This document shows, piece by piece, positions 26,666-52,199 of a stretch of DNA of 64,000 nt. The DNA comes from Eledone cirrhosa. Lineage: Eukaryota. How positions within the stretch are numbered: the stretch's first letter is position 1; every line of letters begins with the position of its first letter. The stretch is from positions 44,330,001-44,394,000 of the forward strand of contig OZ024756.1 in NCBI GenBank assembly GCA_964016885.1. Reading direction: 5' to 3'. The position numbers and the translations under genes were made by a program. The notes below the pieces were generated by a model that saw nothing but the letters and a program-made list of their open reading frames with translations, ran no database searches and was not told where the DNA came from.

Positions 26666-27183
26666 ATTGTAGGAATCGGGTTGATTGCCCCCTATCCGGA
26701 AAATGCCTCTCTAGTAACATTTTCTACAAATGTAAGGTTGTAACACCCACGTCCCGTAGGGCCTACATAGGGTTAACCGTCAGTAGTTTCAAGCAGCATC
26801 TTTACATGCATACCCACCCTTTTAGTTACCCTCTAAGAAGGAATATGACGTCACTTTCAGCTTATATCTGGAGTCTAAAAGACAACCACACCCAATATAA
26901 GTTACACTGGGAGATCCTAGCTAGGGCTAGATCGTATAACGGAAATAAAAGACCATGTAACCTCTGCGCCGCTGAGGCCCTGGAAATACTCTACGCCACA
27001 GACCACATCTTAAACAAAAAATCTGAGGCAATTTCGGCTTGTAAACATAAATTGCACAAAACTTTCCTGTATTACAGCCCCACGTTATACCCTAACGGAT
27101 ATTACGATCTATACGTGGATATTTTACGTCTTGATGTGGGAGCTAAGTATATGTTTTGTTTATACTATTACTTATTTGCATAG
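26666..27183 (+). pseudogene. GIY-YIG endonuclease domain of a Penelope-like element
   Basis: CRNRVDCPLSGKC zinc finger, NIFYKC...AYIGLT, CNLCAAE, LNKKSE..CKH. Confidence 0.88.
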
Positions 27184-27264
27184 CGAACGTTTCCACGAAC
27201 CAAAGTATCGTCTTCCTGTCTTCCTCCGGTTGCAACGTTTTTTGAAATATCCACTTCTGCGTTT

Positions 27265-27340
27265 ACAGATTGACTTTGTTAGTTTCAGAAGATCCTGTTA
27301 AGGGTGAAAGCAGCGATTCTTTGCTTAAACTTTAATCTGT
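27265..27340 (+). ncRNA. Hammerhead ribozyme, family B
   Basis: CAGAAGA U CCU GUUAA GGG U GAAA GCAG..UUGC UU AAACU; sense to the GIY-YIG ORF. Confidence 0.8.
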
Positions 27341-27714
27341 TATTTTAATAAATATTTGCTCTACGGTTCTTATATATTTGATATATATTTATCCTTATCG
27401 AGCCCTCTTTGGATTTTAGTCTTCAAATGTATTATTATTACTATAGTATATGTATATATATATATATAGTATATGTATATATATATATAGTATATGTATA
27501 TATATATATATATAGCATATGTATATATATATATAGTATATATATATATATAGTATATGTATATATATATATATAGTATATGTATACATATATATATAGT
27601 ATATGTATATATATATATATAGTATATGTATATATATATAGTATATGTATATATATATATATAGTATATGTATATATATATATATAGTATATGTATATAT
27701 ATATATAGTATATG

Positions 27715-27745
<31 letters not shown>

Positions 27746-28003
27746 GTATATATATATAGTATATGTATATATATACATATATATATATATATATGAACGT
27801 ATATCTGTGTTTGTTCGTTAATTATGACTTTGAAAGTTTAATTGATTTGTGTATCGATTAGATTTTCAAAAAGAGAGAGACTAATGATGTGATTGTGTAG
27901 GATGATGTCTGTAAAGTATCATAGATTTCTTGTTTACATCGGCAATATGAGTACAGGGTACTCGTATTGCGGATGTAAACTCAGGCACACACACACACAC
28001 ACA

Positions 28004-28062
<59 letters not shown>

Positions 28063-28910
28063 ATACATGTATATACTTCAATGCAAACAGACGGCCGGAT
28101 TCCAAATATTCAATTAATGTTGCAAAATTCACAACACGTATTTCTATGCCCTGTTTACATGATCAGTTCTTGACCTTAGATGTATAGTGATGTCATCAGG
28201 TGTAAATTGCAAAGATTAAGTAATCAATCACTGGATTAGGGCAAACCTAATCAGAGAACAGACTTTATTCGGAGACGGCAAGACATTCAGTATTTCCATG
28301 TTTTTACTTCTAAGCTGTATTCATTTTTTAGGTTCCACTTTTTTTTAGGTTTCAGCTTCAATTATGCCATTTAAAATCTTTTTAATGATATCCACGATAC
28401 AATTATTTATATTACCATACTTAAAAAGACCTCTTCTATGGGTTAGAAGAATTTTAAACTCATATAAAGCTTAAACAGGTAAAAATGTAAAACCGTAATG
28501 TCGGAATTGAAATTCCGTAGCCAGCATTCCATTTTAAAAAGTTAAATTGTTCTATTTTAATAATGGGTTTTGTTTGTTCTAATATATATATATATATAGC
28601 TTCTAACATTTTGTCTATTTGTATTTTCCTTATCTCTGTATGGAAATTATAGTTATTAGCTTATATAAACAAAATATTTTCAATAAATTAGTTTAAATTG
28701 AATGAAACTGATACAATTGAAATTTTGACCTTTTTGCTTAATTGCCAACAACTATCAATTTTTCGCGTGATATTTTAATTTCCTGATATGCACCTGTAGT
28801 GAAATACATACATATATACATTCATATTTATATATATGTATACACACGCATATATATATATACATACATACATACGTATCACATGAATACATAGATTTTT
28901 GTGCGAGAGT

Positions 28911-28958
<48 letters not shown>

Positions 28959-29236
28959 TATGTATAAACTTTCACACACACACACACGCACATACACACA
29001 CATGCACAGGCATACACATAGGTTTTAATAATCATATTTAGAAGGACATAAAATATCATCTCACGTTTAGAATTTCAATTATAGAGAAATACAATAAAAG
29101 TGTGGAAAAGTTGTAAACAACAAAAGCAATAAAAAACACAGCGTCAAGAGGATCGAAGTAATAGGAATATTGACTTTGTAATAGGAATGTTGAAAACACA
29201 TCCTCCTCTTCCGTTTTCTCTCTCTCTCTCTCTCTG

Positions 29237-29307
<71 letters not shown>

Positions 29308-30064
29308 ATGTGTGTGTGTGGATGTGTGTCTATATGTCTATATGTTAGGTTGTTTAATTTTTTTATGTATCACATCCGCAACAACGCAGCACGCCATTTT
29401 TCATATATATATATATAAAGGAAAAAAGGGTTTGAAAAGCGCACCTGGTATATAAAGGATCTTTATAACATGTACAAAAATTGATGTAAAAACTTTATAT
29501 ATACTAGGTGCGCATTTAAAACTTTTTCCTTATATAACGTGATCTGTATAGAATGTTTTCTAGCGTCAACATTTTTTTCAATATATATATATAATGAATA
29601 ATAAAACAGGTAGACATCATAAAAAGGTAATTTGTTCCGAGTGCTTACAAATGTTTCTTTAGTAGTTACACAGCCTAGTCATGCTGTGTGCAAATTGGTA
29701 GTTATTTATTTGCAGATACTCAATTTTCAAATGCTGTTTATCCTACCATGTCATCAGAGCAAATTGCTAAAATGTAAATTCCCTTGTATTTCTTAAAGGG
29801 AGTTATTGGGGAAAATAGAGTAGAAAAGGAAGAGAGAAAGAAGGGGAGAAGGAGAGAGAGAGAGATATGTAGGGGTCGGAGAAATGGGAGAGAGGGGATT
29901 GAAAAAAACAGATAGCTTAATCTAGGGGTCCAACAAGTGGTTTTATTATACTGCTTATTCTCAAAGTGACAACTTAGGCATTGTCTTAATATTGTCAAGT
30001 TTGGAATTATTTATTGCCACAGAGAGCAGGTTGATAGATGTGGAGAAGGAGGGAGATAGACAGA

Positions 30065-49694: not shown

Positions 49695-49860
49695 TTTATA
49701 AAGTCTCTGAAGATACAAGACTGAGTGGAATTAAGGGTTAATGTCAAATTCCTTGACTCAATGCCCTGTTTCTTATAGACACATTTGTATATATTAATAA
49801 TGGATCTCTACACCATTTCCTTTGTTCATATTTTGTTGAAACACGTGTAAGACAAATAAA
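49695..49860 (+). ncRNA. Type I hammerhead with canonical core and a 124-nt stem II domain
   Basis: UUUAU AAA GUCU CUGAAGA U ACAAGA...UUUUGU U GAAA CACGUG UA AGAC AA AUAAA. Confidence 0.72.
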
Positions 49861-50527
49861 AAAGTCTTAAATTTCTTTATCTTGGTTTTCTATCCTTGCC
49901 TTTCATCCTTACGGGGTCGATAACATAAAGTACCAGTAATGCACTGGGTAATTTCTGGCCTTGTGCCTAAAGTAGAAACAATTATTACTTAAATATTCTC
50001 TACATCTGTATTCATACAACACGTCCGATTTATTTACTCAGAATTTAATTTCTTAAAACCTGCGGATTACATCTTCGATAAATTAATTGATTTTTTTGTT
50101 TGGTTTAGTTTTTTTAGGTTTTGTTTTTTTTTTGTTGGATTTTCTTTTCCTTGTTGTTTGTGATAGGAACCGTTTAGCAAAATAGTTAAGGAGCAGTCAG
50201 CCGATGTCTGACAGATATGAAGATCGATGTACTGGAGTGAGCGCTGGCCATACTTTTCTAGTCTGAGGGGTCGTTACCCGTTTATCTAAGCCATTCTAAA
50301 ATTTCTTTTCACAATTATAGAGATAAACTGTGATTAAGAAGTCGGGAGATTCATTTTATGATAAAATAAGAAGAGGATCGAAAGTTCAAAGTATTATTGT
50401 AATAAACAATTATTTAGACCAAAAATATCCAATAAATTCAGTTATGCAACATCACAGAACATTGAATAATGAAGCCAGAGTATAGATGGATTGAAGATAG
50501 CCATTTTAAGCACGTTCCATTTATAAC

Positions 50528-50577
<50 letters not shown>

Positions 50578-50579
<2 letters not shown>

Positions 50580-50776
50580 AATGAGTAGGACCCCGACGGC
50601 TGAGCTCAAGCCGTTTCGACGGCTAATTCTGGACGAATTAGTCCAGAACTAGCCGTCGAAACGGCTTGAGTTCAGCCGTCGGGGTCCTACTTGTTCATAT
50701 TACCCACTCTACTACCTTAAGTATTGAGTACTTTGGTGCGTTATGGTCCATCTGGTTCCTTACCATATTTCCTTCG

Positions 50777-50779
<3 letters not shown>
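50578..50779. mobile_element. Fold-back Penelope pLTR fragment with two hammerhead 3' halves
   Basis: Palindrome 50578-50697. Each arm has CGUC GAAA CGGCU..AGCCG UC GGGGUCC but no CUGANGA. Confidence 0.7.
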
Positions 50780-50832
<53 letters not shown>

Positions 50833-50929
50833 ATAATAATAAAATTGAAGACTAAAATCCAGAGAGGGCTCGATAAGGAAAATATATATCAAATATATAT
50901 GAACCGTAGAGCAAATATTTATTAAAATA

Positions 50930-51005
50930 ACAGATTAAAGTTTAAGCAAAGAATCGCTGCTTTCACCCTTAACGGGATCTTCTGAAACTAACGAAGTCAA
51001 TCTGT
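50930..51005 (-). ncRNA. Hammerhead ribozyme, family B
   Basis: CAGAAGA core, helices intact. Confidence 0.8.
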
Positions 51006-51445
51006 AAACGCAGAAGTGGATATTTCAAAAAACGTTGCAACCGGAGGAAGACAGGAAGACGATACTTTGGTTCGTGGAAACGTTCGCTGGCTAAGAACGG
51101 GAAAAAACGAATATAATACGTGACCACAATATAATATAATAAGACAACCACACCCAATATAAGTTACACTGGGATATCCTAGCTAGGGCTAGATCGTATA
51201 ACGGAAATAAAAGACCATGTGACCTCTGCGCCGCTGAGGCCCTGGAAATACTCTACGCCACAGACCACATCTTAAGCAAAAAATCTGAGGCAATTTCGGC
51301 TTGTAAACATAAATTGCACAAAACTTTCCTGTATTACAGCCCCACGTTATACCCTAACGGATAGTACGATCTATACGTGGATATTTTACGTCTCGATGTG
51401 GGAGCTAAGTATATGTTTTGTTTATACCTTTACTTATTTGCATAG

Positions 51446-52199
51446 GTAAGTATATATTATCCGTATGTTTTGTGAAGGTACGTATACCTTCTCGTACGTA
51501 TATTTGATTGTTATGGCGTATAATTATTTTATATATTCTGGTACATATGGTTCGGCTATGTGTATACGGGAGTTTTGCGTCTGTGTGAGTATGCAGGTTC
51601 GTACGTATGTAGGGCGTGTGTATATGTGTACTTCATGTTTTGGTTGACTTACGTCTCCGAACTTTCGTGTATTTACATGTAGGTATGTGTGCGCGCTTGT
51701 TATATACGTATTTATTTATTTATATACGTTTATATAATTATTTATTTATTTGTATACACGCTTACACATACACACATATTTATATGTGCGTGGTTTTGTT
51801 TACCTATGGTAAGTTTTTGCGTATGCTTGTGTATGTACGTTTCTGTTTGCGTTTATGTATTTATTTACTTCTATTACTTCTGTATTGTATTTATTTACTT
51901 TGTTCTTAACTCCGTAGTGGAGATTCATTCGGTCTCCTAGTTAGAATTTAGTCTACGACTTCTGCTATACCATTTACGTGGTTTTGTCTTTTCGTGCTAT
52001 TGTTCTCCACGCTACCCATATGACATATTATCTTCGTTTTTTTCGTTCATCGCCAGAGAATGTCTCTATGCACCACCTAAGAGAACATTAGTCTACGACC
52101 TCTATTATACCATAAACGTGGTTCTGGCTTTGCGCGTAATTGTTTTTCACCGCTCCTATTAATGACGTATTATATTCGTTTTTCCCCGTTCTTAGCCAG
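51446..52199 (+). other. 754-bp spliceosomal intron within Penelope family B
   Basis: AG|GTAAGT donor and ttttccccgttcttagcCAG| acceptor; precisely absent from the copy at 27183/27184. Confidence 0.85.

What the first reader, a model, noticed from the sequence alone, without database searches (positions are those of the whole stretch)
27183..52199. Spliced versus unspliced Penelope copies: exact loss of a 754-bp GT-AG intron
Seen: the copy at 51141-52370 reads GCATAG|GTAAGT...ttttccccgttcttagcCAG|CGAACG, while the copy at 27183 reads GCATAG|CGAACG. The deletion matches canonical splice sites exactly. Known: Penelope-like elements characteristically retain introns on retrotransposition. Inference: a spliced RNA was reverse-transcribed here. 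The intron lies between the GIY-YIG end and the HHR, so splicing brings the ribozyme within about 80 nt of the junction.
Basis: seen in the sequence. Interest (0 to 1): 0.8.

Follow-up and report, generated by a model that had tools for sequence, protein, structure and literature searches.

The report
Rare spliced copies of Penelope retroelement
A Penelope-type retrotransposon, a group known for keeping its intron when it copies itself through RNA, has here left a copy with the intron cut out exactly at the splice sites, and such copies make up roughly one percent or less of the family, which points to spliced sense RNA serving now and then as the template.

Summary
Confirmed. Copy B holds 754 bp (51446-52199, GTAAGT...YnCAG) that copy A lacks exactly (junction 27183|27184); the shared parts are 97.7-98.7% identical and the microhomology is only AG. 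The element is a Hydra-clade Penelope-like element. A is a separate insertion into a TA-type microsatellite with a 5' inversion and the element's own 3' tail. Four of 5 segments in the window that cross the acceptor keep the intron. Public data show the exact junction in 3 genomic RAD-seq reads and, in contigs of a second run, with both exon-2 alleles (+1 C, +1 G) plus a same-donor joint 4 nt upstream; spliced share about 0.2-1%. So the single-deleted-copy refutation fails. Best reading: spliced sense RNA was reverse-transcribed (0.7); DNA microhomology deletion 0.12. No RNA run was available. The hammerhead matches Hydra-clade layout but has U4A, and splicing does not alter it. I found no paper reporting such copies, but four key papers were unreadable. 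The scan noted spliced copies before in telomeric, endonuclease-less Penelope-like elements on other DNA.

The parts
26316..26627 (-). Copy A, inverted 5' arm: RT thumb/linker coding region (WYNPPY...IFNRNTIKISYS...SNCRNRVDC...NIFYKC); its last 68 nt repeat 26666-26733 of the forward arm
   Evidence: 41% identity to full-length homologue P0014, E 6e-19
26628..26665 (+). Copy A, junction of the inversion; holds a 28-nt copy (26635-26662) of 26849-26876, a template-jump mark
26666..27183 (+). Copy A, forward arm up to the exon junction: Hydra-type GIY-YIG-like endonuclease region (IFY...YIG; CNLC..E..N..CKH) and 81 nt of 3' UTR. The family stop codon is TAT here (27100-27102), so the frame runs on to TAG at 27181-27183, the last codon before the junction
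27184..27445 (+). Copy A, exon 2 joined directly to exon 1 (intron absent): hammerhead-like motif at 27265-27340 and the long 3' tail, no poly(A), ending in a TA-type microsatellite
50828..51121 (-). Copy B, inverted arm: last 35 nt of the intron (acceptor kept), exon 2, hammerhead-like motif, long tail
51141..51445 (+). Copy B, exon 1: end of the endonuclease ORF, stop TAG at 51362-51364, then 81 nt to the donor
   Evidence: close homologues P0005 and P0023 end at about this place
51446..52199 (+). 754-bp GT-AG intron; donor AG|GTAAGT, pyrimidine tract and CAG; a 140-bp tandem duplication (51948-52075 / 52088-52218) doubles the acceptor region; a second AG at 52194-52195 in a minority of copies
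52200..52369 (+). Copy B, exon 2 with the short 3' end, followed by (TA)n
52281..52356 (+). Type I hammerhead-like motif: helix I (9 bp + 5 bp around a 7-nt bulge), core CAGAAGA-U (U4A), 3-bp helix II, U-GAAA, 5-bp helix III, CUU triplet
   Evidence: layout as in Hydra-clade hammerheads of PMC8557442 File S2; no Rfam match; weak folding support
1978..2920 (-). Copy C: 732 nt of the intron (93% identical to B), exon 2 with short end, and a short inverted tail piece (2884-2920); in (TA)n; +1 G allele
12345..12570 (-). Copy D: last 56 nt of the intron and exon 2 with short end; in (TA)n; +1 G allele

Best explanation
The 754 bp are a spliceosomal intron in the 3' repeat region of a very abundant Hydra-clade Penelope-like retrotransposon. 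The element normally copies unspliced RNA, so about 99% of genomic copies that reach the site keep the intron. Rarely, a sense RNA that has been spliced at this intron is used: the element's endonuclease nicks a TA microsatellite, its reverse transcriptase starts at the 3' tail, crosses the exon junction and runs into the ORF; a second priming event gives the inverted arm. Copy A is such a product. Shown: the exact gap, the anatomy of A, several joined forms in public data, their rarity. Inferred: that the spliceosome made the joint, that the element's own enzyme inserted A, and that the joined forms arose more than once. Because A carries about 830 nt of ORF and UTR upstream of the junction, the intron removed was the copy downstream of an ORF, not the leader intron of an mRNA starting in the repeat.
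For: Exact GT-AG gap at a top-ranked donor and acceptor with only 2 nt of microhomology (12 of 450,902 possible deletions; 8 of 33,799 with microhomology). Joined form in a genomic library: 3 reads, 3 starts (X21). In X1 contigs three joints share donor 51446: acceptor 52199 with +1 C (depth 728.8, 1 contig), the same with +1 G (listed as 51446>52201, 410, 2 contigs) and acceptor 52195 (53.2, 1 contig). C and G both segregate among intron-bearing copies (G: 994 of 1288 reads in X21; 315,216 of 470,533 depth in X1), which suggests separate events in two sub-lineages. Diverged single contigs in X1 have depth about 9-19, so the joints stand for tens of loci (inference). A has retro-insertion marks: head-to-head inversion with 68-nt overlap, a 28-nt templated insert, the same tail end as the inverted arms of B and C, no poly(A), the same compound microsatellite unit on both flanks (2 hits left, 11 right), and no flank homology to B. 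A lies inside the family's diversity: 2-3 differences of 165 nt to the 4 other segments, which differ among themselves by 2-5. Splicing of Penelope introns is documented in D. virilis (PMC2377424).
Against: No RNA evidence was obtained. X1 is of unrecorded kind. The 3 RAD reads could be one locus, even locus A, and X21 shows 0 reads for the +1 G and the 52195 joints. Non-splice deletions also exist and spread: a 42-nt skip 52235>52278 reaches depth 860 in X1 and 101 reads (1 start) in X21, and a 799-nt skip 51401>52201 depth 67.3, so copy number alone does not show independence. The +1 G joint has 3 nt (AGG) and the 52195 joint 3 nt (TAG) of microhomology. Only 15 of 48 joints were shown. X5 and X7 show no such joint, at depths near the donor (75 and 12) too low to expect one. 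Copy A itself shows template jumping, so an RT jump at AG is conceivable. No target-site duplication can be read inside the microsatellite.
Confidence: 0.7

Rival explanations
1. Still splicing-derived, but not a fresh insertion by the element's own enzyme: a spliced cDNA converted an existing intron-bearing copy in place, or another retroelement's RT (a LINE lies at 23015-25786) copied the spliced RNA.
For: Would give the same exact junction; cannot be excluded for any single locus (inference). LINE EN and RT domains are present in the window.
Against: A ends at the element's own tail site without poly(A) and sits in the family's usual TA target, which argues against a LINE; in-place conversion is not tested.
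Confidence: 0.12
2. DNA-level deletion by microhomology-mediated repair, or an RT template jump, at the shared AG; one or few events later amplified.
For: Microhomology-mediated intron loss is proposed for nematodes and flies (PMC3698931 abstract); microhomology deletions disable Penelope copies in A. vaga (PMC3846280 Discussion); non-splice deletions of depth 67-860 exist in this family; A has a templated insert.
Against: Only 2-3 nt of microhomology across 754 bp; 8 of 33,799 such deletions would hit a strong donor and acceptor; three joints share one donor and split by the same C/G allele as unspliced copies.
Confidence: 0.12
3. Intron gain: A is a survivor of an intron-less ancestor and the 754 bp were inserted in the lineage that later expanded.
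For: In the two Hydra consensus 3' ends I saw (Hydra-1_Obim, Hydra-2_Amil) the stop-to-core distance is about 125 and 215 nt by eye, like the spliced form here (183 nt); so the family gained the intron at some time.
Against: A is as close to intron-bearing copies as they are to each other, intron copies B and C have already diverged to 93%, and joined forms carry both exon-2 alleles.
Confidence: 0.04
4. Assembly artefact in the window.
For: Repeat-rich, microsatellite-rich region.
Against: The same junction stands in raw genomic reads and in contigs of other runs.
Confidence: 0.02

Closest known systems
Hydra clade of C-terminal-endonuclease Penelope-like elements (Craig et al. 2021, PMC8557442), e.g. 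Hydra-1_Obim
   Same: Linker and endonuclease motifs, no cysteine pair between GIY and YIG, (TA)n targets, hammerhead layout with U on either side of helix II and cleavage after U.
   Different: A different family (its hammerhead sequence differs from Hydra-1_Obim). It has a 754-bp intron between stop and hammerhead; 'intron' occurs twice in that paper's supplement, both for Physarum. Core has U4A, seen in none of the hammerheads listed in File S2.
Penelope of Drosophila virilis (Schostak et al. 2008, PMC2377424; Cervera and De la Pena 2014, PMC4209133)
   Same: A spliceosomal intron in the terminal repeat upstream of a hammerhead, kept on transposition although most transcripts are spliced.
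   Different: 75 bp against 754 bp; its intron end overlaps helix I so splicing changes the ribozyme, here it lies 81 nt upstream; the passages I read report spliced RNA, not spliced genomic copies.
Chlamys-3_cRei (PMC8557442)
   Same: Long intron (398 bp, alternative 751 bp) at the pLTR, retained in DNA.
   Different: N-terminal endonuclease clade; no spliced genomic copies reported in the passages read.
Poseidon of Anolis, PAc (Frangieh et al. 2024, PMC11167929)
   Same: Sense RNA template in vitro, AT-rich targets, two RT start sites giving copies with and without a tail; here too two recurrent 3' ends.
   Different: Tail there 30-40 bp, here about 90 bp; no intron question addressed in the parts read.

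Membership tests
Penelope-like element, C-terminal EN+ | C-terminal GIY-YIG-type endonuclease | tested here: met
   Pfam finds nothing on the window protein, but 4,278 homologues at E<=0.001; full-length ones carry RT then this domain, P0078 with weak GIY-YIG (E 0.0023) and RVT_1 (E 0.019) hits below cut-off; IFY...YIG, E and N align; the conserved R is H in copy A.
Penelope-like element, C-terminal EN+ | Telomerase-like RT core in the same ORF | not testable with these tools
   All window copies are 5'-truncated; only the thumb/linker is present. No genome is held.
Penelope-like element, C-terminal EN+ | Inverted 5'-truncated arm and optional tail | tested here: met
   Inverted arms in A, B, C; two recurrent 3' ends among 5 segments.
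Penelope-like element, C-terminal EN+ | Partial-tandem pLTR before a full ORF | not testable with these tools
   No full-length copy in the window; calling this region a pLTR is inference from its position and the hammerhead.
Hydra clade | CCHH cysteine pair between GIY and YIG absent | tested here: met
   Window: IFYKCKVVTPTSRRAYIG; 0 of the 91 homologues (of 150) where the pattern was found have CxxC there.
Hydra clade | Linker CxCX5C | tested here: inconclusive
   Copy A reads SNCRNRVDC (first C is S); 86 of 150 homologues have CxCX5C.
Hydra clade | [quoted passage not shown] | tested here: met
   CNLC..E...N...CKH in copy A; 134 of 150 homologues.
Hydra clade | DKT and RWK motifs in the N-terminal region | not testable with these tools
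   Region absent from the window; 2 of the 3 homologues of 600 aa or more have DKT and RWx, the third is partial.
Hydra clade | Insertion into (TA)n | tested here: met
   4 of 4 insertions flanked by TA-type microsatellite.
Neptune / Nematis clades | CX2-5CxxC linker and CCHH motif | tested here: not met
   Neither is present; my first guess of Neptune was dropped.
Type I hammerhead ribozyme | Core CUGANGA | tested here: not met
   CAGAAGA in 5 of 5 window segments; no CTGANGA on either strand of copy B.
Type I hammerhead ribozyme | GAAA, NUH triplet and three helices | tested here: met
   All helices pair; -13.0 kcal/mol against an MFE of -15.1 in B, -10.4 against -17.2 in A; U.U at 10.1-11.1 is a known natural variant (PMC3088659) and usual in Hydra elements.
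Type I hammerhead ribozyme | Fold favoured in context; self-cleavage | tested here: inconclusive
   z -0.75 and -1.34; helix probabilities 0.13 or lower in longer context; no Rfam hammerhead match; activity not testable.
U2-type spliceosomal intron | GT-AG ends, donor consensus, pyrimidine tract | tested here: met
   Donor ties for best of 104 GT, acceptor for best of 41 AG by a simple score.
U2-type spliceosomal intron | Removed from RNA in vivo | not testable with these tools
   No RNA holder listed; inferred from exact joints in DNA and contigs.

The most novel reading that the evidence does not exclude
Intron retention in this element is a filter on sense RNA, not a sign of an antisense template. 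The intron starts 81 nt after the stop codon, beyond the 50-55-nt rule (recalled), so RNA spliced at the 3' intron would be destroyed by nonsense-mediated decay when translated, and the cis-acting enzyme would mostly find unspliced RNA. Copy A has lost the stop and reads on to a stop in the last codon before the junction, which would make its RNA immune (chance about 0.03, post hoc, assuming 3 private changes in 305 nt). Prediction: intron-less copies genome-wide are enriched for this stop loss.
Probability: 0.15. Interest if true: 0.75.

Novelty: new variant of a known kind. Interest (0 to 1): 0.5.

Why it matters
Why Penelope-like elements keep introns is an open question: Arkhipova et al. 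2013 (PMC3846280) weigh an antisense template, which could never lose an intron exactly, against an unspliced sense transcript, and Craig et al. 2021 call the significance unknown. Exact intron-less genomic copies show that spliced sense RNA can be the template, and a family with tens of thousands of copies gives a measurable leak rate (about 1% or less) and enough events to test what lets a spliced RNA through. It also adds an intron-bearing family to the Hydra clade. It does not change the general rule that the intron is kept.

Tried and rejected
No genome is held, so no genome-wide copy count. No RNA holder listed; this says nothing on expression. Exon-2 pattern: 1 match in metagenome contigs, a bacterial-looking chance hit (L001), 0 in viral contigs. 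The word-index protein search found nothing in either length class; the full HMMER scan did. Rfam: 0 matches at gathering score in the window, 2 irrelevant weak ones around the motif. The first two-copy MAFFT alignment misplaced the gap and was not used. Neptune-clade assignment rejected. The idea that splicing remodels the ribozyme was rejected: the acceptor is outside helix I, and predicted helix probabilities are low in both contexts. Runs X5 and X7 were too shallow to show a 1% joint. Passages of PMC8293314, PMC12910113 and PMC5537684 and part 1 of 5 of bioRxiv 10.64898/2026.07.22.740005 held nothing on spliced genomic copies. Three papers were not held.
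Full report
Observation. The window is AT-rich (34% GC) animal-like DNA full of microsatellites; it looks octopus-like to me from recall, which I did not test (the only named homologue is from Argonauta hians, 35% identical). No genome is held. Copy B has 754 bp at 51446-52199 that start GTAAGT and end in a pyrimidine tract and CAG; copy A joins the two sides exactly at 27183|27184. Upstream the copies are 97.7% identical over 305 nt, downstream 98.7% over 151 nt; microhomology is the 2-nt AG. With a simple consensus score of my own, the donor ties for best among 104 GT and the acceptor among 41 AG; 12 of 450,902 possible deletions, and 8 of 33,799 with 2 nt or more of microhomology, join a strong donor to a strong acceptor.

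The element. The forward arm of A encodes a 171-aa endonuclease region with no Pfam match but 4,278 homologues at E<=0.001; the long ones are RT-linker-endonuclease proteins. The motifs fit the Hydra clade as defined in section 11 of PMC8557442: no cysteine pair between IFY and YIG, CxxC and CxH around the conserved E and N (134 of 150 homologues), a CxCX5C-type linker (first C is S in A; 86 of 150 homologues have it), DKT in 2 of 3 long homologues, and (TA)n targets. It is not the published Hydra-1_Obim, whose hammerhead differs. In two Hydra consensus 3' ends that I saw, stop and ribozyme core lie about 125 and 215 nt apart by eye, so this family's intron is an addition; the paper's supplement notes no Hydra intron.

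Copies in the window. Four insertions give 5 segments that cross the acceptor: A (joined), B forward, B inverted, C and D (all 4 with intron sequence). All lie in TA-type microsatellite. Two 3' ends recur: a short one (B forward, C, D) and a tail about 90 nt longer (A, B inverted, the inverted piece of C), as expected from two RT start sites (PMC11167929, parts 1-2 of 4). A is a head-to-head inversion: the minus arm 26316-26627 codes for thumb and linker (41% to P0014) and overlaps the forward arm by 68 nt; the joint holds a 28-nt copy of 26849-26876. The same compound microsatellite unit lies on both flanks and no flank is shared with B. So A is its own retro-insertion, not a duplicate of B's locus. 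No target-site duplication can be read. A differs from the other 4 segments at 2-3 of 165 exon-2 sites, they from each other at 2-5, so A sits inside the family.

Public data (4 of the 23 runs listed; 15 of 48 joints shown). In X21, a genomic RAD-seq run, 3 reads with 3 starts skip exactly these 754 nt, against depths of 860-1,288 near the sites: 0.23-0.35%, 95% range 0.05-1.0% (RAD sampling is biased and joints near read ends are missed). In X1 (contigs, kind not on record, coverage pattern genomic) three joints share donor 51446: to 52200 with +1 C (depth 728.8, 1 contig); the row 51446>52201, which is the same joint with +1 G (410, 2 contigs); and to 52196, after the AG at 52194-52195 (53.2, 1 contig), an AG that only about 2% of X1 depth carries. 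Whether that last joint comes from a copy with the AG is not shown. Together they are 0.25-1.1% of the summed depth at four nearby places; summed contig depth is no copy number and overlapping contigs inflate the denominator, so the share could be a few times higher. Diverged contigs have depth about 9-19, so the joints probably stand for tens of loci. Against my reading: X21 has 0 reads for the G and the 52196 joints; a 42-nt non-splice skip reaches depth 860 and a 799-nt skip at a 4-nt repeat 67.3, so single deletions can spread as far; X5 and X7 show no joint, at depths too low to tell. No RNA run was listed.

How it most likely works. Shown: exact gap, several joined forms, rarity, retro-insertion marks. 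Inferred: the element is transcribed in sense through ORF, stop, intron, exon 2, ribozyme and tail; its RT starts in the tail region, so what is copied first is the 3' copy of the intron, which is nearly always still in the RNA. In about 1% or less of events it has been spliced. A carries about 830 nt of ORF and UTR upstream of the junction, so it was the intron downstream of an ORF that was removed. An antisense template, one of two models in the Discussion of PMC3846280, cannot give an exact loss, so at least this fraction comes from sense RNA. Why the 3' intron is usually kept is open: poor recognition of a terminal intron, or decay of spliced RNA. The family stop (TAG 51362-51364; homologues P0005 and P0023 end there too, and the site is not among the 40 best-supported differences of 802) lies 81 nt before the donor. 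In A this codon is TAT and the frame ends in the last codon before the junction. That would exempt A's RNA from junction-dependent decay; the coincidence has p about 0.03 after the fact, the rule is recalled and its validity in this host unknown, so I give it 0.15.

The ribozyme. 52281-52356 can fold as a type I hammerhead with every helix paired, and the U on either side of helix II and the U at the cleavage site match many Hydra-clade hammerheads (File S2; U.U variant also in PMC3088659 section 8). But the core is CAGAAGA in 5 of 5 segments, unlike every core in that table and in the Fig. S3 list of PMC4209133; Rfam does not find it and folding support is weak. It may be inactive or a new variant. 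The acceptor is 81 nt upstream of helix I, so, unlike D. virilis, splicing does not change it.

Literature. Seen: PMC4209133 main text parts 1-2 of 4 and supplement parts 1-2 of 3; PMC8557442 passages, section 11 and supplement searches with part 2 of 59; PMC3846280 passages and Discussion; PMC11167929 parts 1-2 of 4; PMC2377424 passages; PMC3088659 passages and section 8; PMC3698931 abstract; bioRxiv 10.64898/2026.07.22.740005 part 1 of 5 (its supplements are closed); passages of three more without relevance. Searches for spliced or intron-less genomic copies turned up none. Not seen: Arkhipova 2003 and 2006 (known only through citations) and PMC5850863, PMC4860704, PMC1890498; they may report such copies, so the claim of novelty is provisional. 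Earlier notes of this scan describe spliced and unspliced copies in telomeric, endonuclease-less elements of other genomes; I did not test them; nothing similar by sequence or in this genome.

Verdict. Observation confirmed, interpretation supported except for the ribozyme link. A new variant of a known kind: an intron-bearing Hydra-clade family with a small, measurable leak of spliced copies. Interest 0.5.

Noticed in passing
window 27100-27102 and 27181-27183 (+): The spliced copy has lost the family stop codon and the frame ends exactly at the exon junction.
   Followed up: partly
window 52302-52308, and all 5 segments: Hammerhead core CAGAAGA (U4A) fixed in the window's copies; not in the published Hydra or metazoan lists read.
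   Followed up: partly
window 51948-52075 / 52088-52218: 140-bp tandem duplication at the intron's 3' end giving a second strong acceptor at 52056; a second GTAAGT donor lies at 51809. No joint using them among the 15 shown.
   Followed up: partly
window 52236-52277: A 42-nt deletion just upstream of the ribozyme marks a sub-lineage (depth 860 in X1, 101 reads in X21).
   Followed up: no
window 27347-27352: AATAAA right at the short 3' end of the element, after the ribozyme; role unknown.
   Followed up: no
window 23015-25786 (+): LINE with endonuclease and RT domains, split by one stop near 24615; RTE-like by recall.
   Followed up: partly
window 38436-39374 (-): 3' part of a second, unrelated Penelope-like family with a Pfam GIY-YIG match and cysteines inside the motif, next to (TA)n.
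   Followed up: partly
window 6193-6491, 21659-21993, 50575-50700: Near-perfect palindromes of 300, 335 and 126 bp; the last lies between TA tracts just left of copy B and has a partial copy at 34244-34288.
   Followed up: no
window 11247-11443 / 12108-12304: 197-bp inverted repeats around about 660 bp of GC-richer DNA, like a small DNA transposon, beside copy D.
   Followed up: no
window 1-1801: A 98-99% identical unit repeated in tandem and inverted arrangement, directly beside copy C.
   Followed up: no
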